DNA of 64,000 nucleotides from Eledone cirrhosa. Lineage: Eukaryota. Position 1 is the stretch's first letter. Every line of letters begins with the position of its first letter. The notes beneath the pieces are model-generated. The model was not told the DNA's origin, did not search any database, and saw nothing but the letters and a program-made list of their open reading frames with translations. The stretch spans positions 32,922,001-32,986,000 of the forward strand of contig OZ024741.1 of NCBI GenBank assembly GCA_964016885.1, given 5' to 3'. Shown here one piece after another: positions 1 through 56,642 of this stretch. The position numbers and the translations under genes are program-made.

Positions 1-3000
1 GTGTCTTCCAGTATATATATGTCTTACAGTATATATGTGTCTTACAGTATATATGTGTCTTCCAGTATATATATGTCTTACAGTATATATGTGTCTTACA
101 GTATATATGTGTCTTACAGTATATCTATGTCTTACAGTATATATGTGTCTTACAGTATATATATATGTGTCTTACAGTATACATGTGTCTTACAGTATCT
201 ATGTGTCTTACAGTATCTATGTGTCTTACAGTATATATATGTGTCTTACAGTATCTATGTGTCTTACAGTATATATGTGTCTTACAGTATATATGTGTCT
301 TACAGTATATATATGTGTCTTACAGTATATATGTGTCTTACAGTATATATATGTGTCTTACAGTATAGATGTGTCTTACAGTATATATGTGTCTTACAGT
401 ATATATATGTGTCTTACAGTATCTATGTGTCTTACAGTATATATGTGTCTTACAGTATATATATGTGTCTTACAGTATATATGTGTCTTACAGTATATAT
501 GTGTCTTACAGTATATATGTGTCTTACAGTATATATGTGTCTTACAGTATCTAAGTGTCTTACAGTATATATGTGTCTTACAGTATATATATGTGTCTTA
601 CAGTATATTTGTGTCTTACAGTATATATGTGTCTTACAGTATATATGTGTCTTACAGTATATATATGTCTTACAGTATATATATGTGTCTTACAGTATAT
701 ATGTGTCTTACAGTATATATATGTGTCTTACAGTATCTATGTCTCTTACAGTATATATGTGTCTTACAGTATATATATGTGTCTTACAGTATATATGTGT
801 CTTACAGTATATATGTGTCTTACAGTATATATATGTGTCTTACAGTATCTATGTGTCTTACAGTATGTATGTGTCTTACAGTATATATGTGTCTTACAGT
901 ATATATGTGTCTTACGGTATATATGTGTCTTACAGTATATCTATGTGTCTTACAGTATATATGTGTCTTACAGTATATATATGTGTCTTACAGTATATAT
1001 GTGTCTTACAGTATATATGTGTCTTACAGTATATATATGTGTCTTACAGTATATATGTGTCTTACAGTATATATGTGTCTTACAGTATATCTATGTGTCT
1101 TACAGTATATATGTGTCTTACAGTATATATATGTGTCTTACAGTATATATGTGTCTTACAGTATATATGTGTCTTACAGTATATCTATGTGTCTTACAGT
1201 ATATATGTGTCTTACAGTATATATATGTGTCTTACAGTATATATGTGTCTTACAGTATATATGTGTCTTACAGTATATATGTGTTTTACAGTATATATGT
1301 GTCTTACAGTATCTATGTGTCTTACAGTATATATGTGTCTTACAATATATATGTGTCTTACAGTATATATGTGTCTTACAGTATATATGTGTCTTACAGT
1401 ATATATGTGTCTTACAGTATATATGTCTCTTACAGTATATATATGTGTCTTACAGTATATATGTGTCTTACAGTATATATGTGTGTCTTACAGTATATAT
1501 GTGTCTTGCAGTATATATATGTGTCTTACAGTATATATGTGTCTTACAGTATATATGTGTCTTACAGTATATATGTGTCTTACAGTATATATGTGTCTTA
1601 CAGTATATATATGTGTCTTACAGTATATATGTGTCTTACAGTATATATATGTGTCTTACAGTATATATGTGTCTTACAGTATATATGTGTCTTACAATAT
1701 ATATGTGTCTTACAGTATATATGTGTCTTACAGTATATATGTGTCTTACAGTATATATGTGTCTTACAGTATCTAAGTGTCTTACAGTATATATGTGTCT
1801 TACAGTATATATATGTGTCTTACAGTATATTTGTGTCTTACAGTATATATGTGTCTTACAGTATATATGTGTCTTACAGTATATATATGTCTTACAGTAT
1901 ATATATGTCTTACAGTATATATGTGTCTTACAGTATATATATGTCTTACAGTATATATGTGTCTTACAGTATATATGTGTCTTCCAGTATATATATGTCT
2001 TACAGTATATATGTGTCTTACAGTTTATATGTGTCTTTCAGTATATATGTGTCTTACAGTATCTATGTGTCTTACAGTATATATGTGTCTTACAGTATAT
2101 ATATGTGTCTTACAGTATATATGTGTCTTACAGTATATATGTGTCTTACAGTATATATGTGTCTTACAGTATATATATGTCTTACAGTATATATATGTCT
2201 TACAGTATATATGTGTCTTACAGTATATATATGTCTTACAGTATATATGTGTCTTACAGTATATATGTGTCTTCCAGTATATATATGTCTTACAGTATAT
2301 ATGTGTCTTACAGTATATATGTGTCTTACAGTATATATGTGTCTTACAGTATCTATGTGTCTTACAGTATATATGTGTCTTCCAGTATATATATGTCTTA
2401 CAGTATATATGTGTCTTACAGTATATATGTCTCTTCCAGTATATATATGTCTTACAGTATATATGTGTCTTACAGTATATATGTGTCTTACAGTATATCT
2501 ATGTCTTACAGTATATATGTGTCTTACAGTATATATATATGTGTCTTACAGTATATGTGTCTTACAGTATATATGTGTGTTACAGTATATATGTGTCTTA
2601 CAGTATATATGTGTCTTACAGTATATACGTGTCTTACAGTATATATATGTCTTACAGTATATATGTGTCTTACAGTATATACGTGTCTTACAGTATATAT
2701 GTGTGTGTTACAGTATATATATGTGTCTTACAGTATATATGTGTCTTACAGTATATATATGTGTCTTACAGTATATATGTGTCTTACAGTATATATGTGT
2801 CTTACAGTATATATATTTGTCTTACAGTATATATGTGTCTTACAGTATATATCTGTCTTACAGTATCTATGTGTCTTACAGTATATATGTGTCTTACAGT
2901 ATATATATGTCTTACAGTATATATATGTCTTACTGTATATACGTGTCTTACAGTATATATGTGTCTTACAGTATATATATGTGTCTTACAGTATATATGT

Positions 3001-6000
3001 GTCTTATAGTATATATGTGTCTTACAGTATATATCTGTCTTACAGTATATATGTGTCTTACAGTATATATGTGTCTTACAGTATATATCTGTCTTACAGT
3101 ATATATGTGTCTTACAGTATATATGTGTCTTACAGTATATATGTGTCTTACAATATATATGTGTCTTACAGTATATATGTGTCTTACAGTATATATGTGT
3201 CTTACAGTATATATGTGTCTTACAGTATATATGTGTTTTACAGTATATATGTGTCTTAGAGTATATATATGTGTCTTACAGTATCTATGTGTCTTACAGT
3301 ATCTATGTGTCTTACAGTATATATATGTGTCTTACAGTATCTATGTGTCTTACAGTATATATGTGTCTTACAGTATATATGTGTCTTACAGTATATATAT
3401 GTGTCTTACAGTATATATGTGTCTTACAGTATATATATGTGTCTTACAGTATAGATGTGTCTTACAGTATATATGTGTCTTACAGTATATATATGTGTCT
3501 TACAGTATCTAAGTGTCTTACAGTATATATGTGTCTTACAGTATATATATATGTGTCTTACAGTATATATGTGTCTTACAGTATATATATGTGTCTTACA
3601 GTATCTATGTGTCTTACAGTATGTATGTGTCTTACAGTATATATGTGTCTTACAGTATATATGTGTCTTACAGTATATATGTGTCTTACAGTATATATGT
3701 GTCTTACAGTATCTAAGTGTCTTACAGTATATATGTGTCTTACAGTATATATATGTGTCTTACAGTATATTTGTGTCTTACAGTATATACGTGTCTTACA
3801 GTATATATGTGTCTTACAGTATATATGTGTCTTACAGTATATATGTGTCTTACAGTATATATGTGTCTTACAGTGTATATGTGTCTTACAATATATATGT
3901 GTCTTACAGTATATATGTGTCTTACAGTATATATATGTGTCTTACAGTATATATGTGTCTTACAGTATATACGTGTCTTACAGTATATATGTGTCTTACA
4001 GTATATATATGTGTCTTACAGTATATATGTGTCTTATAGTATATATGTGTCTTACAGTATATATCTGTCTTACAGTATATATGTGTCTTACAGTATATAT
4101 GTGTCTTACAGTATATATCTGTCTTACAGTATATATGTGTCTTACAGTATATATGTCTCTTACAGTATATATGTGTCTTACAATATATATGTGTCTTACA
4201 GTATATATGTGCCTTACAGTATATATGTGTCTTACAGTATATATGTGTCTTACAGTATATATGTGTCTTACAGTATATATGTGTCTTACAGTATATATAT
4301 GTGTCTTACAGTATCTATGTGTCTTACAGTATATATGTGTCTTACAGTATATATATGTGTCTTACAGTATCTATGTGTCTTACAGTATCTATGTGTCTTA
4401 CAGTATATATGTGTCTTACAGTATATATGTGTCTTACAGTATATATATGTGTCTTACAGTATATATGTGTCTTACAGTATATATATGTGTCTTACAGTAT
4501 AGATGTGTCTTACAGTATATATGTGTCTTACAGTATATATATGTGTCTTACAGTATCTATGTCTCTTACAGTATATATGTGTCTTACAGTATATATATGT
4601 GTGTCTTACAGTATATATGTGTCTTACAGTATATATGTGTCTTACAGTATATATATGTGTCTTACAGTATCTATGTGTCTTACAGTATGTATGTGTCTTA
4701 CAGTATATATGTGTCTTACAGTATATATGTGTCTTACGGTATATATGTGTCTTACAGTATATCTATGTGTCTTACAGTATATATGTGTCTTACAGTATAT
4801 ATATGTGTCTTACAGTATATATGTGTCTTACAGTATATATGTGTCTTACAGTATATATATGTGTCTTACAGTATATATGTGTCTTACAGTATATATGTGT
4901 CTTACAGTATATCTATGTGTCTTACAGTATATATGTGTCTTACAGTATATATATGTGTCTTACAGTATATATGTGTCTTACAGTATATATGTGTCTTACA
5001 GTATATCTATGTGTCTTACAGTATATATGTGTCTTACAGTATATATATGTGTCTTACAGTATATATGTGTCTTACAGTATATATGTGTCTTACAGTATAT
5101 ATGTGTCTTACAGTATATATGTGTCTTACAGTATCTATGTGTCTTACAGTATATATGTGTCTTACAATATATATGTGTCTTACAGTATATATGTGTCTTA
5201 CAGTATATATGTGTCTTACAGTATATATGTGTCTTACAGTATATATGTCTCTTACAGTATATATATGTGTCTTACAATATATATGTGTCTTACAGTATAT
5301 ATGTGTGTCTTACAGTATATATGTGTCTTGCAGTATATATATGTGTCTTACAGTATATATGTGTCTTACAGTATATATGTGTCTTACAGTATATATGTGT
5401 CTTACAGTATATATGTGTCTTACAGTATATATATGTGTCTTACAGTATTTATGTGTCTTACAGTATATATATGTGTCTTACAGTATATATGTGTCTTACA
5501 GTATATATGTGTCTTACAATATATATGTGTCTTACAGTATATATGTGTCTTACAGTATATATGTGTCTTACAGTATATATGTGTCTTACAGTATATATGT
5601 GTCTTACAGTATCTAAGTGTCTTACAGTATATATGTGTCTTACAGTATATATATGTGTCTTACAGTATATTTGTGTCTTACAGTATATATGTGTCTTACA
5701 GTATATATGTGTCTTACAGTATATATATGTCTTACAGTATATATATGTCTTACAGTATATATGTGTCTTACAGTATATATATGTCTTACAGTATATATGT
5801 GTCTTACAGTATATATGTGTCTTCCAGTATATATATGTCTTACAGTATATATGTGTCTTACAGTTTATATGTGTCTCTCAGTATATATGTGTCTTACAGT
5901 ATCTATGTGTCTTACAGTATATATGTGTCTTACAGTATATATATGTGTCTTACAGTATATATGTGTCTTACAGTATATATGTGTCTTACAGTATATATGT

Positions 6001-9000
6001 GTCTTACAGTATATATATGTCTTACAGTATATATATGTCTTACAGTATATATGTGTCTTACAGTATTTATATGTCTTACAGTATATATGTGTCTTACAGT
6101 ATATGTGTGTCTTCCAGTATATATATGTCTTACAGTATATATGTGTCTTACAGTATATATGTGTCTTACAGTATATATGTGTCTTACAGTATCTATGTGT
6201 CTTACAGTATATATGTGTCTTCCAGTATATATATGTCTTACAGTATATATGTGTCTTACAGTATATATGTGTCTTCCAGTATATATATGTCTTACAGTAT
6301 ATATGTGTCTTACAGTATATATGTGTCTTACAGTATATCTATGTCTTACAGTATATATGTGTCTTACAGTATATATATATGTGTCTTACAGTATATATGT
6401 GTCTTACAGTATATATGTGTCTTACAGTATATATGTGTCTTACAGTATATATGTGTCTTACAGTATATACGTGTCTTACAGTATATATATGTCTTACAGT
6501 ATATATGTGTTTTACAGTATATACGTGTCTTACAGTATATATGTGTGTTACAGTATATATATGTGTCTTACAGTATATATGTGTCTTACAGTATATATAT
6601 GTGTCTTACAGTATATATGTGTCTTACAGTATATATGTGTCTTACAGTATATATATGTGTCTTACAGTATATATGTGTCTTACAGTATATATCTGTCTTA
6701 CAGTATCTATGTGTCTTACAGTATATATGTGTCTTACAGTATATATATGTCTTACAGTATATATGTGTCTTACAGTATATACGTGTCTTACAGTATATAT
6801 GTGTCTTACAGTATATATATGTGTCTTACAGTATATATGTGTCTTATAGTATATATGTGTCTTACAGTATATATCTGTCTTACAGTATATATGTGTCTTA
6901 CAGTATATATGTGTCTTACAGTATATATCTGTCTTACAGTATATATGTGTCTTACAGTATATATGTGTCTTACAGTATATATGTGTCTTACAATATATAT
7001 GTGTCTTACAGTATATATGTGTCTTACAGTATATATGTGTCTTACAGTATATATGTGTCTTACAGTATATATGTGTCTTACAGTATATATGTGTCTTAGA
7101 GTATATATATGTGTCTTACAGTATCTATGTGTCTTACAGTATCTATGTGTCTTACAGTATATATATGTGTCTTACAGTATCTATGTGTCTTACAGTATAT
7201 ATGTGTCTTACAGTATATATGTGTCTTACAGTATATATATGTGTCTTACAGTATATATGTGTCTTACAGTATATATATGTGTCTTACAGTATAGATGTGT
7301 CTTACAGTATATATGTGTCTTACAGTATATATATGTGTCTTACAGTATCTATGTGTCTTAGAGTATATATGTGTCTTACAGTATATATGTGTCTTACAGT
7401 ATATATATGTGTCTTACAGTATCTATGTGTCTTACAGTATGTATGTGTCTTACAGTATATATGTGTCTTACAGTATATATGTGTCTTACAGTATATATGT
7501 GTCTTACAGTATATATGTGTCTTACAGTATCTAAGTGTCTTACAGTATATATGTGTCTTACAGTATATATATGTGTCTTACAGTATATTTGTGTCTTACA
7601 GTATATATGTGTCTTACAGTATATATGTGTCTTACAGTATATATATGTCTTACAGTATATATATGTCTTACAGTATATATGTGTCTTACAGTATATATAT
7701 GTCTTACAGTATATATGTGTCTTACAGTATATATGTGTCTTCCAGTATATATATGTCTTACAGTATATATGTGTCTTACAGTTTATATGTGTCTTTCAGT
7801 ATATATGTGTCTTACAGTATCTATGTGTCTTACAGTATATATGTGTCTTACAGTATATATATGTGTCTTACAGTATATATGTGTCTTACAGTATATATGT
7901 GTCTTACAGTATATATGTGTCTTACAGTATATATATGTCTTACAGTATATATATGTCTTACAGTATATATGTGTCTTACAGTATATATACGTCTTACAGT
8001 ATATATGTGTCTTACAGTATATATGTGTCTTCCAGTATATATATGTCTTACAGTATATATGTGTCTTACAGTATATATGTGTCTTACAGTATATATGTGT
8101 CTTACAGTATCTATGTGTCTTACAGTATATATGTGTCTTCCAGTATATATATGTCTTACAGTATATATGTGTCTTACAGTATATATGTGTCTTCCAGTAT
8201 ATATATGTCTTACAGTATATATGTGTCTTACAGTATATATGTGTCTTACAGTATATCTATGTCTTACAGTATATATGTGTCTTACAGTATATATATATGT
8301 GTCTTACAGTATACATGTGTCTTACAGTATCTATGTGTCTTACAGTATCTATGTGTCTTACAGTATATATATGTGTCTTACAGTATCTATGTGTCTTACA
8401 GTATATATGTGTCTTACAGTATATATGTGTCTTACAGTATATATATGTGTCTTACAGTATATATGTGTCTTACAGTATATATATGTGTCTTACAGTATAG
8501 ATGTGTCTTACAGTATATATGTGTCTTACAGTATATATATGTGTCTTACAGTATCTATGTGTCTTACAGTATATATGTGTCTTACAGTATATATATGTGT
8601 CTTACAGTATATATGTGTCTTACAGTATATATGTGTCTTACAGTATATATGTGTCTTACAGTATATATGTGTCTTACAGTATCTAAGTGTCTTACAGTAT
8701 ATATGTGTCTTACAGTATATATATGTGTCTTACAGTATATTTGTGTCTTACAGTATATATGTGTCTTACAGTATATATGTGTCTTACAGTATATATATGT
8801 CTTACAGTATATATATGTCTTACAGTATATATGTGTCTTACAGTATATATATGTCTTACAGTATATATGTGTCTTACAGTATATATGTGTCTTCCAGTAT
8901 ATATATGTCTTACAGTATATATCTGTCTTACAGTTTATATGTGTCTTTCAGTATATATGTGTCTTACAGTATCTATGTGTCTTACAGTATATATGTGTCT

Positions 9001-11660
9001 TACAGTATATATATGTGTCTTACAGTATATATGTGTCTTACAGTATATATGTGTCTTACAGTATATATGTGTCTTACAGTATATATATGTCTTACAGTAT
9101 ATATATGTCTTACAGTATATATGTGTCTTACAGTATATATATGTCTTACAGTATATATGTGTCTTACAGTATATATGTGTCTTCCAGTATATATATGTCT
9201 TACAGTATATATGTGTCTTACAGTATATATGTGTCTTACAGTATATATGTGTCTTACAGTATCTATGTGTCTTACAGTATATATGTGTCTTCCAGTATAT
9301 ATATGTCTTACAGTATATATGTGTCTTACAGTATATATGTGTCTTCCAGTATATATATGTCTTACAGTATATATGTGTCTTACAGTATATATGTGTCTTA
9401 CAGTATATCTATGTCTTACAGTATATATGTGTCTTACAGTATATATATATGGGTCTTACAGTATACATGTGTCTTACAGTATCTATGTGTCTTACAGTAT
9501 CTATGTGTCTTACAGTATATATATGTGTCTTACAGTATCTATGTGTCTTACAGTATATATGTGTCTTACAGTATATATGTGTCTTACAGTATATATATGT
9601 GTCTTACAGTATATATGTGTCTTACAGTATATATATGTGTCTTACAGTATAGATGTGTCTTACAGTATATATGTGTCTTACAGTATATATATGTGTCTTA
9701 CAGTATCTATGTGTCTTACAGTATATATGTGTCTTACAGTATATATGTGTCTTACAGTATATATGTGTCTTACAGTATATATATGTGTCTTACAGTATCT
9801 ATGTGTCTTACAGTATGTATGTGTCTTACAGTATATATGTGTCTTACAGTATATATGTGTCTTACGGTATATATGTGTCTTACAGTATATCTATGTGTCT
9901 TACAGTATATATGTGTCTTACAGTATATATATGTGTCTTACAGTATATATGTGTCTTACAGTATATATGTGTCTTACAGTATATATATGTGTCTTACAGT
10001 ATATATGTGTCTTACAGTATATTTGTGTCTTACAGTATATCTATGTGTCTTACAGTATATATGTGTCTTACAGTATATATATGTGTCTTACAGTATATGT
10101 GTGTCTTACAGTATATATGTGTCTTACAGTATATCTATGTGTCTTACAGTATATATGTGTCTTACAGTATATATATGTGTCTTACAGTATATATGTGTCT
10201 TACAGTATATATGTGTCTTACAGTATATATGTGTCTTACAGTATATATGTGTCTTACAGTATCTATGTGTCTTACAGTATATATGTGTCTTACAATATAT
10301 ATGTGTCTTACAGTATATATGTGTCTTACAGTATATATGTGTCTTACAGTATATATGTGTCTTACAGTATATATGTGTCTTACAGTATATATATGTATCT
10401 TACAGTATATATGTGTCTTACAGTATATATGTGTGTCTTACAGTATATATGTGTCTTGCAGTATATATATGTGTCTTACAGTATATATGTGTCTTACAGT
10501 ATATATGTTTCTTACAGTATATATGTGTCTTACAGTATATATGTGTCTTACAGTATATATATGTGTCTTACAGTATATATGTGTCTTACAGTATATATAT
10601 GTGTCTTACAGTATATATGTGTCTTACAGTATATATGTGTCTTACAATATATATGTGTCTTACAGTATATATGTGTCTTACAGTATATATGTGTCTTACA
10701 GTATATATGTGTCTTACAGTATATATGTGTCTTACAGTATCTAAGTGTCTTACAGTATATATGTGTCTTACAGTATATATATGTGTCTTACAGTATATTT
10801 GTGTCTTACAGTATATATGTGTCTTACAGTATATATGTGTCTTACAGTATATATATGTCTTACAGTATATATATGTCTTACAGTATATATGTGTCTTACA
10901 GTATATATGTGTCTTCCAGTATATATATGTCTTACAGTATATATGTGTCTTACAGTTTATATGTGTCTTTCAGTATATATGTGTCTTACAGTATCTATGT
11001 GTCTTACAGTATATATGTGTCTTCCACTATATATATGTCTTACAGTATATATGTGTCTTAAAGTATATATGTGTCTTCCAGTATATATATGTCTTACAGT
11101 ATATATGTGTCTTACAGTATATATGTGTCTTACAGTATATATATGTGTCTTACAGTATATATGTGTCTTACAGTATATATATGTGTCTTACAGTATATAT
11201 GTGTCTTACAGTATATATGTGTCTTACAGTATATATATGTGTCTTACAGTATATATGTGTCTTACAGTATATATGTGTCTTACAGTATATATGTGTCTTA
11301 CAGTATATATGTGTCTTAAAGTATATATGTGTCTTACAGTATATATATGTGTCTTACAGTATATATGTGTCTTAAAGTATATATGTGTCTTCCAGTATAT
11401 ATATGTCTTACAGTATATATGTGTCTTACAGTATATATGTGTCTTACAGTATATATATGTGTCTTACAGTATATATGTGTCTTACAGTATATATATGTGT
11501 CTTACAGTATATATGTGTCTTACAGTATATATGTGTCTTACAGTATATATATGTGTCTTACAGTATATATGTGTCTTACAGTATATATGTGTCTTACAGT
11601 ATATATATGTGTCTTACAGTATATATGTGTCTTACAGTATATATGTGTCTTACAGTATAT
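1..11660. repeat. Satellite array, 18-bp unit GTGTCTTACAGTATATAT with 20-bp (+AT) and point variants; open at the window start
   Basis: Unit seen continuously for 11.6 kb. The + strand unit has no stop in any frame, which explains the VSYSIY/MCLTVY/CVLQYI ORFs. Confidence 0.98.
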
Positions 11661-45856: not shown

Positions 45857-46012
45857 GGGTCCAGAAACTTTTGGTAATGGAGTATTTATATATTGTGTTG
45901 TTCACTTTCTAATTATATATATATAAGTCCCGGGTTCAATTGGAAGTAACCGACAAATAGCAAGGTACTCAATACATTAGTAGAGAGTAAACATCGTGTT
46001 TAATATAGAAAT

Positions 46013-46064
46013 GGCTTCTACGGGACTAAAACTGTTTCATTCAAAAGGAATCACCAGGAAATCC
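46013..46064 (-). ncRNA. Hammerhead motif (inverted copy of 46299)
   Basis: GGATTTC CTGGTGA TTC..GAAT GAAACAG..CCGTA GAAGCC. Confidence 0.6.
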
Positions 46065-46298
46065 GGCTGTCGTTGTAAGACACAAGTGTGTGGTGTTCGT
46101 ACGTATATGTGTACGTGAGTGTAAATATGAACCTTTACATTTACCTGTATAATTTTATTAAAGTGCATATAGCTACTTTTTTTAAAGAATCCCTGTTCTT
46201 TAAATTCCCTTGACCAATAAACACCACTCATCCCCCAAACCACCACCGTCCCCAGCCACCAGAATACATATAGATACAAGTATTTTACAAAGACAGAC

Positions 46299-46350
46299 GG
46301 CTTTCCTGGTGATTTCTTTTGAATGAAACAGTTCTATTCCTGTAGAAGCC
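46299..46350 (+). ncRNA. Hammerhead motif (A6G); decayed relatives at about 49590-49690 retain CTGATGA
   Basis: GGCTTTC CTGGTGA TTTCttttGAAT GAAACAG ttctattc CTGTA GAAGCC. Confidence 0.65.
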
Positions 46351-46384
46351 ATTTCTATATTAAACATACCTACATATATATATA

Positions 46385-46565
46385 TAGGAAAAAGTATGAC
46401 CCCGACAGCAGAGCTCAAGCCGTTTCGACGTCCAGAAATAGCTGTCGAAACGACTTGAGCTCTGCCGTCGGGGTCATACATTTTCCTATTTCCCACTCTA
46501 CTACCCTAAGTATTGAGTACTCTGGTGCGTTATGGTCCATCTGGTTCCTTACCACAATTCCTTTG

Positions 46566-46625
<60 letters not shown>

Positions 46626-46785
46626 CGAAGGAAATGTGGTAAGGAACCAGGTGGACCATAACGCACCAAAGTACTCAATACTTAGGGTAGTAGAGTGGGT
46701 AATAGGAACGAGTAGGACCCCTAGTCCAGAATTAGCCGTCGAAACGGCTTGAGCTCAGCCGTCGGTGTCCTACTCGTTCCTATAT
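46385..46785. repeat. Nested foldbacks containing the 3' half of a hammerhead (GAAACGGC..GCCGTC)
   Basis: 46385-46430 pairs with 46445-46490; 46490-46570 pairs with 46622-46700; further copy at 46740-46782. Confidence 0.75.
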
Positions 46786-46963
46786 ATATATATATAAGAA
46801 AATTTCGCTCTACATGGCTGAATACAACAAATGTAATCTGAGTTTTTCGAATATTAATAATAACATTCGATTTGTTTGCAATTATACACACAAGCCTCAA
46901 TTTTATAGCCATGTCACTAGAATGAACCCTTCATTCTTGCTCTTGTGCTGGCATGCGATGAGA

Positions 46964-47009
46964 ACTGCAGACACTAATGTTTCTGGGTATCACCCTTCAT
47001 CAGTACAGC
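46964..47009 (-). ncRNA. Type I hammerhead ribozyme
   Basis: GCTGTA CTGATGA aGGGT gat ACCCa GAAACA ttag TGTC TGCAGT. Confidence 0.83.
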
Positions 47010-47229
47010 TCACTGTTCACAACACAAGGGCAAGAATGAAGTGTTCATTCTACTGACATGGCTATAAAATTGAGGCTTGTCTGCATAATTGCAAACGAAT
47101 CGAATGTTATTATTAATATTCGAAAAACTCAGATTAGATTTATTGTATTCAGCCATGTAGAGCGAAATTTTCTTTTTTATTTGAATTTGGCAAAGCCGGC
47201 CATTTATCGCTCGTATACAGGAAACTGAC

Positions 47230-47333
47230 TGGCCAGTCTGCTGATATGCAAATCTGACTGATCAGTGAATCTGCTAATATGCAAATCCGACTGATCAGCC
47301 AGTCTGGTAATATGCAAATCAGGCCGATCAGTC
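47230..47333 (+). promoter_or_regulatory. Three 33-bp repeats, each with an octamer ATGCAAAT
   Basis: ATGCAAAT at 47246, 47279 and 47312; function is inferred. Confidence 0.55.
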
Positions 47334-47398
47334 ACTGTGTATTTTTGAAAATAGCATATATTTTCACTAGCTCTGACAGTTTGGCCGGTGAACAGTGA

Positions 47399-47444
47399 GC
47401 TGTACTGATGAAGGATGATACCCAGAAACATTAGTGCCTGCAGT
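47399..47444 (+). ncRNA. Type I hammerhead motif (GCC at the cleavage triplet, probably inactive)
   Basis: GCTGTA CTGATGA AGGATGATACCCA GAAACA ttag TGCC TGCAGT. Confidence 0.72.
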
Positions 47445-47805
47445 TCTGTTCACATGCCAACACAAGAGCAAGAATGAAGTGTTAATTCTACTGACATGGC
47501 TATAAAATTGAGGCTTGTTTGCAAAATTGCAAACGAATCGAATGTTATTATTAATATTCGAAAAACTCAGATTACATTTTGGGATTCTATTATTTTTGGA
47601 ATTCTATTATTTAAGTTCGAGTATTGTTCCATAACTTCAGGTTTCCTATCAATAACATTCAAATTTACTTAAAGCTATCCTCAGATGGGTAAATCGACAT
47701 ATTTTTTTACTACATTGTTCTCAGTCGTGGCCTGTGCTCTGCTCTATATGACTATTAAACAGTAAAACGCAAATATTTAGAGAAAATATTATGAAAATTC
47801 AATAC

Positions 47806-55585: not shown

Positions 55586-55917
55586 TGTGTATGTGTATGT
55601 ATATCAATGTGGGTGTATATCTATATCTATATCTATATATGAATGAAACTAAATTTTATTTCTCACTCTTAGTACGGCAGTTACTTAAATGTAAGTAAGT
55701 ATGTATGTATACGTACATACATATATGTATACAGACGTACAGTAGTATGTATATATATACATACATGCACATATATATATATATATGCACGTATCGGTTT
55801 ACCGAACATTTATTATAATGCTCGGTTTGTTTGTTTGTAAACAAACAAACAAACCGAATTACACCGTACAGTGTTTAGGCAACCACGTCACCTCTTTGTT
55901 CAACACTGACACAGGAA

Positions 55918-55958
55918 CGATGTACTAGTTTCAAGCTTATTAGCTATCGTCAGCATTG
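55918..55958 (-). ncRNA. Type I hammerhead ribozyme
   Basis: CAATG CTGACGA tAGCT aata AGCTt GAAACTAGTA CATCG. Confidence 0.78.
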
Positions 55959-56316
55959 TATACCTTCCTGCCAGATGGTTGAACGTCTGAAAGTATATAC
56001 TTTCCTTATGCATATTAACGGCTGAGAAGCCTAATTTGCATATCGAGTGAGTTCAGTCGGCTGGGCGCACCGAAAACGATAAATGGAATAGAATCAAAAG
56101 AAATTTCATTTCTCACTCTTAGTACGGCACTTACTTAAATGTAAGTATGCATGTATGTATACGTACATACATATATGTATATACAGACGTACAGTAGTAT
56201 GTATATATATACATACATGCACATATATATATATATGCACGTAGGCTGCTCAGCCGTTAATATGCATAAGGAAAGTATATACTTTCAGACGTTCAACTAT
56301 CTGGCAGGAAGGTATA

Positions 56317-56357
56317 CGATGCTGACGATAGCTAATAAGCTTGAAACTAGTACATCG
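56317..56357 (+). ncRNA. Type I hammerhead ribozyme
   Basis: CGATG CTGACGA tAGCT aata AGCTt GAAACTAGTA CATCG; 5-bp stem I, palindromic ACTAGT stem III. Confidence 0.88.
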
Positions 56358-56642
56358 TTCCTGTGTCAGTGTTGAACAAAGAGGTGACGTGGTTGCCTAA
56401 ACACTGTATGGTGTAATTCGGTTTGTTTGTTTGTTTACAAACAAACAAACCGAGCATTATAATAAATGTTCGGTAAACCGATACGTGCATATATATATAT
56501 ATATATGTGCATGTATGTATATATATACATACTACTGTACGTCTGTATACATATATGTATGTACGTATACATACATACTTACTTACATTTAAGTAACTGC
56601 CGTACTAAGAGTGAGAAATAAAATTTCGTTTCATTCTATTCC

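What the first reader, a model, noticed from the sequence alone, without database searches (positions are those of the whole stretch)
46795..47580. 438-nt non-coding HHR monomer with a triple octamer cassette (satellite-2-like retrozyme)
Seen: a partial tandem with period 438, no ORF, one HHR per unit, and three 33-bp repeats with ATGCAAAT ending about 86 nt upstream of the HHR core. Established: the octamer is the distal element of snRNA promoters, and newt satellite 2 combines an HHR with an internal snRNA-type promoter. Inference: a self-transcribing, self-cleaving small RNA retroelement in which each unit supplies the promoter for the next, giving a linear or circular RNA of about 438 nt.
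Basis: partly seen in the sequence, partly recalled or inferred. Interest (0 to 1): 0.8.

Follow-up and report, generated by a model that had tools for sequence, protein, structure and literature searches.

The report
Retrozyme with host snRNA-type promoter
This is a damaged copy of a non-coding, self-cleaving mobile repeat with thousands of copies, likely moved by Penelope-type retrotransposons, and it and three diverged relatives carry a DNA motif matching this animal's own small-nuclear-RNA promoters, so they likely switch on their own transcription.

Summary
A real non-LTR retrozyme (438-bp unit, minimal type I hammerhead, no ORF) with thousands of dispersed copies about 3.5% diverged. Insertions show Penelope-like hallmarks: head-to-head inverted arms (62 of 87 sampled loci), two 3' ends about 35 nt apart, (TA)n targets, and 5' ends piling up behind the cut site. 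The 'triple octamer' is peculiar to this copy: the family has ATGCAGAT in the middle. The octamer is not a distal enhancer here. Host U6, U6atac and MRP genes carry it at -76 to -78, and the third repeat matches that proximal element. Three diverged hammerhead families keep the same motif plus a TATA-like box at a fixed distance (26,893 further hits, control 1). That distance fits the host's U1/U2 genes, so Pol II read-through is likelier than Pol III. No RNA data were available, so promoter, start site and circle are inferred. No intact source copy or proven mobiliser was found. The class is known and newt satellite 2 is a precedent; a 2020 review says retrozymes seem to lack promoters.

The parts
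46781..46796 (.). (TA)8 target microsatellite abutting the 3' end of the inverted arm
   Evidence: 115 of 128 terminal arms abut (TA)n
46790..47020 (-). Inverted, 5'-truncated arm ending at the long (tail, type B) 3' end
46970..47003 (-). Intact minimal type I hammerhead core (CUGAUGA, stem II, GAAA, short stem III, GUC); predicted cut between 46970 and 46969
47020..47457 (+). One 438-bp unit
47137..47180 (+). The two preferred 3' end sites of insertions (type A near 47143, type B near 47171-47180) with the roughly 35-nt tail between them
47168..47178 (+). T-rich run (T4, C, T6); would be a Pol III terminator
   Evidence: meaning inferred
47232..47331 (+). Three 33-bp repeats; octamer-like words at 47246, 47279 (ATGCAGAT in the family) and 47312
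47311..47332 (+). PSE-like element: 5' half matches host U6/U6atac/MRP proximal motif, 3' half matches host U1/U2 core
47354..47362 (+). TATA-like box, conserved in position in four families
47386..47386 (+). Predicted start site (A in the family, C in this copy)
   Evidence: inferred, no RNA data
47397..47446 (+). Hammerhead with two private defects (47415 in stem II; 47437, GUC to GCC); predicted inactive
47458..47579 (+). Partial second unit (pseudo-LTR) ending at the type A 3' end; here not followed by (TA)n

Best explanation
It is a decayed copy of a non-coding 438-bp hammerhead repeat with Penelope-type insertion structure, likely copied in trans by a Penelope-like retrotransposon protein and likely transcribed from its own snRNA-type promoter. 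Steps: (1) inferred: host SNAPc-type factors bind the PSE-like element (third 33-bp repeat) and the TATA-like box, and a polymerase, more likely Pol II (about 60%) than Pol III (about 30%), starts about 19 nt before the hammerhead core. (2) Inferred: the polymerase reads through the T-run; the unit has no snRNA 3' box. (3) Inferred from insertion ends: the hammerhead cuts at GUC. A copy with a promoter and two ribozymes would release a 438-nt monomer that contains the promoter and would likely be circularised; ordinary one-ribozyme copies would give only short RNA. (4) Shown as structure, inferred as mechanism: a GIY-YIG/RT protein cuts (TA)n and starts reverse transcription at two internal sites about 35 nt apart, one on each target strand, giving head-to-head arms that stop at the cut site or run on round the unit.
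For: Copy number: 3,237 candidates, best 40 at 94-100% including the window's own; 1,406 exact hits of a 36-mer; 1,956 promoter-plus-core hits, control 0 (7 of the first 100 rows belong to other families). Structure in 87 loci picked only by the 36-mer: 62 head-to-head, 0 tail-to-tail; 35 of 62 pair an A end with a B end; 115 of 128 terminal arms abut (TA)3 against 608 of 4,350 random 20-mers. These are the PLE traits listed in PMC8557442 (passages) and the two RT starts of PMC11167929 (parts 1-2 of 4 read). 5' ends: 27 of 92 arms at risk stop in the 22 nt behind the cut site against 5 of 65 in the next 22 nt upstream (p=0.001) and 7 of 99 before (p=6e-5). RNA intermediate of this strand: one copy has 16 A>G and 0 T>C in 199 nt. 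Promoter: 5 of 5 U6/U6atac/MRP promoter types have the octamer-like motif at -76 to -78; the third repeat scores 17.5 bits (host leave-one-out 12.7-18.0; 1 of 400 shuffles reach it). A model trained only on 8 U1/U2 promoters picks the same register as best of 394 positions, 0 of 100 shuffles. Three diverged families keep motif and TATA-like box at 41-43 nt while the spacer differs; 26,893 hits against 1 in the control. Hammerhead stems pair through different base pairs in all four. Coding RT+GIY-YIG elements with 97% identical copies exist, one with the same head-to-head form and unequal ends.
Against: No RNA evidence of any kind. The promoter is a U6-like sequence at U1/U2-like spacing, which none of the 15 host genes lined up shows; at U6 spacing the TATA block scores -0.8 against 7.6-12.1. 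The U1/U2 model ranks the site 1st, 2nd and 17th in the three other families, none clearly above shuffles (8, 12 and 4 of 100 reach the best score), and it gave 16.7 by chance upstream of U6atac. No pile-up of 5' ends near the predicted start (5 of 59 against 1 of 54, p=0.21). The pile-up behind the cut site could come from RT stalling in the long stem I. None of 12 long copies examined has a promoter followed by two intact ribozymes. No sequence shared with a coding PLE in 45 GIY-YIG loci, apart from 2 neighbouring copies of the element itself. Within-family conservation of the motifs is no higher than background (0.95-0.98 against 0.96). The window's own + arm does not end in (TA)n.
Confidence: 0.7

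Rival explanations
1. Same element, but the promoter is a U6-type Pol III promoter. The main RNA would be about 225 nt, ending in the T-run, and unit-length RNA would need leaky termination.
For: The motif is 14 of 15 identical to the MRP promoter; U1, U2 and RNase P lack it. A T4-C-T6 run lies at the type B 3' end. In Drosophila the PSEA sequence helps set polymerase choice (PMC1761439, abstract and passages).
Against: TATA lies 41-43 nt from the motif in four families against 46-48 in five host Pol III promoters. Family 2 forms tandem arrays with a T7 run in the unit examined. 65 of 122 arms extend upstream past the cut site, most of them past the predicted start into the promoter region, which a short transcript lacks.
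Confidence: 0.2
2. The motif is a POU-factor site or an inherited relic, not a basal promoter; the element is transcribed by read-through from flanking DNA, as proposed for retrozymes in general.
For: PMC7761336 (passages) proposes read-through for all retrozymes. No start-site signal in 5' ends. Other hammerhead families here lack the motif. The four families may share one ancestor, so they are not independent.
Against: Motif and TATA-like box survive at fixed spacing where the rest of the units mostly no longer align. The host uses this motif proximally in its small-RNA genes. A fifth family carries the host distal element at the host distance.
Confidence: 0.12
3. The 438 bp are the 3' UTR or pseudo-LTR of a longer coding Penelope-like element, seen mostly as truncated copies.
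For: PLE hallmarks throughout. One copy adjoins a PLE fragment directly. Only 45 of 10,595 GIY-YIG candidates were examined.
Against: Long arms run back into the previous unit, 18 of 128 beyond 438 nt. 4 of 117 loci have a PLE protein hit and the only adjoining one is on the opposite strand. 28 free 5' flanks show only scattered pairwise matches and no upstream sequence common to most of them.
Confidence: 0.04

Closest known systems
Non-LTR (metazoan) retrozymes (Cervera and de la Pena 2020, PMC7229834; Li et al. 2026, 10.64898/2026.07.22.740005)
   Same: Short non-coding repeat unit with one type I hammerhead, thousands of copies, low GC, link to PLEs.
   Different: This family is almost all under two units long and head-to-head; it carries a host-matched promoter-like element. 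The words promoter, octamer and snRNA do not occur in the 2026 preprint, and the 2020 review says none is apparent.
Newt satellite 2
   Same: Hammerhead repeat with an internal snRNA-type promoter used by Pol II (seen only as a citing passage in PMC2220036).
   Different: Here the octamer-like word is the proximal element, not a distal one; no long arrays for this family; Penelope-type inverted insertions in (TA)n. Homology not tested. The octamer role in the newt is recalled, not read.
Penelope-like elements with a CX2-5CxxC linker (Neptune type; PMC8557442, PMC11167929)
   Same: Partial tandem, inverted 5' arm, 30-40 nt tail, (TA)n target, hammerhead in the repeat.
   Different: No RT or endonuclease; the one coding family whose hammerhead was found lacks the PSE-like motif (0 of 5).
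Host U6/U6atac/MRP (type 3 Pol III) and U1/U2 (Pol II) promoters
   Same: 5' half of the element matches the first group, 3' half, TATA distance and start base match the second.
   Different: The combination occurs in none of 15 host promoters lined up; the host distal motif and 3' box are absent.

Membership tests
Non-LTR retrozyme | Type I hammerhead in each unit | tested here: met
   Core motifs intact in 83 of 128 segments, GTC in 120 of 139; stems pair. Below Rfam gathering; this family is not among the 150 rows listed.
Non-LTR retrozyme | Short tandem unit of 150-450 bp, no coding capacity | tested here: met
   438 bp; longest ATG ORF 80 aa; no tRNA gene in 6 loci.
Non-LTR retrozyme | Two or more consecutive units with complete hammerheads ('active' in Li et al. 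2026) | tested here: inconclusive
   One locus (L127/L277) has two intact cores; 8 loci have two repeat cassettes; no array of three. Related families form long arrays.
Non-LTR retrozyme | Self-cleavage and linear or circular monomer RNA | not testable with these tools
   No RNA holder listed; only indirect signs in insertion ends.
Penelope-like element | RT plus GIY-YIG ORF | tested here: not met
   No ORF; so at most a non-autonomous client.
Penelope-like element | Partial tandem, inverted 5' copy, 30-40 nt tail, (TA)n target | tested here: met
   62 of 87, 35 of 62 and 115 of 128.
Penelope-like element | 3' sequence shared with an autonomous partner | tested here: inconclusive
   None in 45 GIY-YIG loci of 10,595 candidates; one head-to-head junction with a broken PLE.
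Newt satellite 2 type | Octamer as distal enhancer | tested here: not met
   0 of 14 host promoters have a distal octamer; host distal motif absent from the unit.
Newt satellite 2 type | Internal snRNA-type proximal promoter | tested here: inconclusive
   Sequence and spacing fit; function untested.
Newt satellite 2 type | Sequence homology to satellite 2 | not tested
   No satellite 2 sequence at hand.
Host type 3 Pol III promoter | Octamer-like proximal motif | tested here: met
   17.5 bits, 1 of 400 shuffles.
Host type 3 Pol III promoter | TATA box 46-48 nt from the motif | tested here: not met
   43 nt here, 41-43 in four families; block score -0.8.
Host U1/U2 Pol II promoter | ATCAGT-type core 57-59 nt before a pyrimidine-A start, TATA-like box at -30 to -35 | tested here: met
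   Best of 394 positions, 16.6-18.3 bits, host leave-one-out 9.0-26.7.
Host U1/U2 Pol II promoter | Distal motif near -260 and 3' box | tested here: not met

The most novel reading that the evidence does not exclude
A whole clade of retrozymes in this genome (at least four families, about 29,000 promoter-ribozyme units) has captured the host snRNA promoter in a hybrid form that no host gene examined uses: the U6-type proximal sequence set at the U1/U2 distance from TATA. This would recruit Pol II, let it read through T-runs, and make each unit a self-contained transcription unit whose ribozyme regenerates the promoter inside a circular RNA: in effect the SINEs of Penelope elements. The families would also be a natural test of whether spacing or sequence sets polymerase choice in this lineage.
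Probability: 0.45. Interest if true: 0.75.

Novelty: new variant of a known kind. Interest (0 to 1): 0.57.

Why it matters
How animal retrozymes get transcribed is open: a 2020 review states that they seem to lack promoters (PMC7761336), with newt satellite 2 and the schistosome repeat as old exceptions. Here a short, defined element predicts a start site to the base and a polymerase, in tens of thousands of copies, so the question becomes directly testable. Such copies could also compete for SNAPc or seed new small-RNA transcription. The insertion data give genome-scale support for the two-site internal priming seen in vitro for one PLE. The class itself, and this decayed copy, are ordinary.

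Tried and rejected
Expression: no RNA holder listed; three runs of unknown kind from one sample, held as contigs, confirmed family variants and 3' ends only. Rfam: nothing at gathering score in the window; in four loci only family 3 reached a hammerhead model (HH9, 36.5 bits, cut-off 52) among the 150 of 210 rows shown. Distal-octamer model rejected (the first attempt had only 3 training sites and was redone). A first U6/Pol III reading was demoted when the TATA spacing failed. A snRNA 3' box at the type A end was rejected (score below 0 against 2.6-20.7 in host genes). Pile-up of 5' ends at the start site not significant. In the 30 best full-length copies 16 of 30 5' ends lie at or just behind the cut site, but the set is selected and I do not count it. 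A genome-wide A>G excess (289 against 195) is largely one polymorphic column and is not used. The search for the autonomous partner found no shared 3' sequence. Rows left out: 3 duplicate loci in the 87-locus sample, 6 short arms split by nested insertions, 11 array copies of L044. Earlier findings: none. The 1994 newt paper is not held, so it is cited second-hand. Literature searches listed no paper on snRNA-type promoters in invertebrate retrozymes or on this lineage's PSE; subscription journals, Repbase and supplements were not seen and may hold these families.

Full report
Positions written q are unit positions (q = window position minus 47019). The window lies in a 3.0-Gb animal genome rich in microsatellites; the host group was not established.

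Observation. The 438 period is real: 47020-47141 repeats at 47458-47579 with 96% identity. Three corrections follow. The stretch 46790-47020 is an inverted copy of the unit's 3' part (93%) and abuts (TA)8. The + strand hammerhead reads GCC instead of GUC and has a broken stem II pair, while the inverted arm holds an intact one. The middle octamer is a private change: the family reads ATGCAGAT (75 of 99 segments, ATGCAAAT in 3), whereas the first and third read ATGCAAAT in 66 of 92 and 84 of 110.

Family and insertion structure. A search with the unit gave 3,237 candidates, of which 40 were scored; an exact 36-mer has 1,406 hits. Median divergence from the column majority is 3.5% (290 segments). 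I sampled 87 loci by that 36-mer alone (first part of contig C1), which favours less diverged copies that hold the 3' region. Of these, 62 have two arms head-to-head with 3' ends outward and none is tail-to-tail; 35 of the 62 pair an end at q113-131 with one at q144-167; 115 of 128 such ends abut (TA)3, against 14% of random 20-mers. Inverted 5' copies, a 30-40 nt tail at one end and (TA)n targets are the traits given for Penelope-like elements in PMC8557442 (passages), and PMC11167929 (parts 1-2 of 4) ties the tail to two internal RT start sites. The genome has coding RT plus GIY-YIG elements with a CxxxxCxxC linker and 97% identical copies; one locus shows the same head-to-head form with unequal ends. 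I found no sequence shared between the unit and 45 such loci beyond two neighbouring copies. One copy of 117 is joined without a gap, head-to-head, to a broken PLE 3' half of another family; this is a single hint at co-insertion. Long arms run back into the previous unit (18 of 128 exceed 438 nt), so the unit closes on itself and is not a PLE 3' UTR in these copies.

Ribozyme and template. The core is a minimal type I hammerhead whose stem III can also pair between two copies over 8 bp; cores are intact in 83 of 128 segments. Arm 5' ends stop in the 22 nt behind the cut site in 27 of 92 cases, against 5 of 65 just upstream (p=0.001). This fits templates that begin at the cut, though RT stalling in the long stem I would look alike. 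The other 65 arms pass the site, most run on into the promoter region, and several copies reach past the predicted start a second time. With no three-unit array seen (8 two-cassette loci; 2 same-strand pairs in the first 100 rows), a circular template is the simplest reading, but lost or collapsed arrays and template jumps are not excluded. A natural monomer folds as a circle at -125.7 kcal/mol against -99.1 (sd 6.3) for 40 shuffles. One copy carries 16 A>G and no T>C changes in 199 nt, the pattern of A-to-I editing (recalled), which points to an RNA of this strand.

Promoter. I fetched host U1, U2, U6, U6atac, MRP and RNase P genes. None of 14 promoter types has an octamer at -350 to -100; 11 of 14 have instead a TCCCTT motif at -258 to -289, which the unit lacks. 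The octamer-like word is proximal here: all 5 U6, U6atac and MRP types have it at -76 to -78, with TATA at -30. The third repeat of the element scores 17.5 bits on that motif (host 12.7-18.0; 1 of 400 shuffles; the second repeat 10.9), but TATA at U6 spacing scores -0.8. U1 and U2 have an ATCAGT-type core at -57 to -59 and a TATA-like box at -30 to -35; RNase P has that core and not the octamer. A model trained on 8 U1/U2 promoters alone picks the position 15 nt into the same element as best of 394 and puts the start at 47386 (0 of 100 shuffles); the same model scored 16.7 by chance in 1 of 6 Pol III promoters.

Other families. Scanning the held loci showed further hammerhead families with the same motif upstream. 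A genome search for motif plus core, excluding this family, gave 26,893 hits against 1 for the reversed pattern; the first 100 rows show three families, two of them in tandem arrays. In all four the TATA-like box lies 41-43 nt from the motif, against 46-48 in the host Pol III genes, while the spacers differ and the units mostly fail to align. The U1/U2 model ranks the expected site 1st, 2nd and 17th in these three, not clearly above shuffles. The hammerhead of a coding PLE family and three other families lack the motif; one of them, a 310-bp repeat, carries the host distal motif at the host distance. No snRNA 3' box was found in any unit.

Reading. The best fit is a retrozyme moved by PLE proteins (about 0.9) that carries a working snRNA-type promoter (about 0.8), more likely for Pol II, since spacing and start base follow U1/U2 and the unit must be read through a T-run. 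The register that links the U6-type and U1/U2-type halves comes from the element itself and is an inference. None of 12 long copies examined had a promoter followed by two intact ribozymes, so this family may no longer be active; the window's copy has lost the cut site and the predicted start base.

Comparison and verdict. Non-LTR retrozymes and their link to PLEs are published (PMC7229834, passages; 10.64898/2026.07.22.740005, parts 1-2 of 5 and a word search). PMC7761336 (passages) says that retrozymes seem to lack promoters; newt satellite 2 with a Pol II snRNA promoter is the precedent (citing passage in PMC2220036; original not seen). PMC10886601 (passages) and PMC13282606 (passages) added nothing on this family. 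Eight literature searches listed no description of this promoter arrangement, within the limits of the library. Verdict: a new variant of a known kind, with a precise and testable promoter prediction; interest 0.57.

Noticed in passing
L047-L061, L114, L120, L181, L227-L230 (host snRNA-class promoters): Host promoter code: Pol III genes U6, U6atac and MRP have an octamer-like motif at -76 to -78 and TATA at -30; U1 and U2 have an ATCAGT-type core at -57 to -59 and also a TATA-like box; both share a TCCCTT motif near -260. RNase P mixes the U1/U2 core with the longer TATA distance. Useful for guide-RNA promoters in this lineage.
   Followed up: partly
window 55640-56640: A head-to-head insertion of family 2, with hammerhead cores at 55953 (-) and 56322 (+) and the same promoter-like motif at 56031-56042 (-).
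   Followed up: partly
L140 and L005 (310-bp tandem repeat): A fifth hammerhead family lacks the octamer-like motif but carries the host distal element 278 nt before the next core, right behind its cut site.
   Followed up: partly
L268-L276 (C1 5.738-5.752 Mb) and L261-L267: Arrays of about 30 near-identical 466-bp units (family 3) and six 456-502-bp units (family 2); these are the better places to look for expressed monomers.
   Followed up: partly
L033:1008-2100 and L044:8170-9200: The 33-bp repeat is amplified to over 30 copies in one insertion; in another an 88-bp piece of it is amplified about 12 times, next to an A>G hypermutated copy.
   Followed up: partly
L277:2449-3390: An element arm joined head-to-head, without a gap, to a broken Penelope-like 3' half only about 25% identical to the families in hand; a candidate mobiliser.
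   Followed up: partly
L118:1280-1620: An inverted element arm directly abuts a U6atac copy that lacks a promoter, as if a host small RNA had been copied in the same event.
   Followed up: no
L250 against L006: Families 1 and 4 share the roughly 45-nt tail region although their units do not align elsewhere, a likely recognition signal for the mobilising protein.
   Followed up: partly
window 26748, 32985, 39340/39569, 45997-46730: More hammerhead-like cores and several long palindromes centred on or flanked by (TA)n, probably other Penelope-type insertions.
   Followed up: no
window 1-11660: An 18-bp minisatellite of about 635 copies.
   Followed up: no
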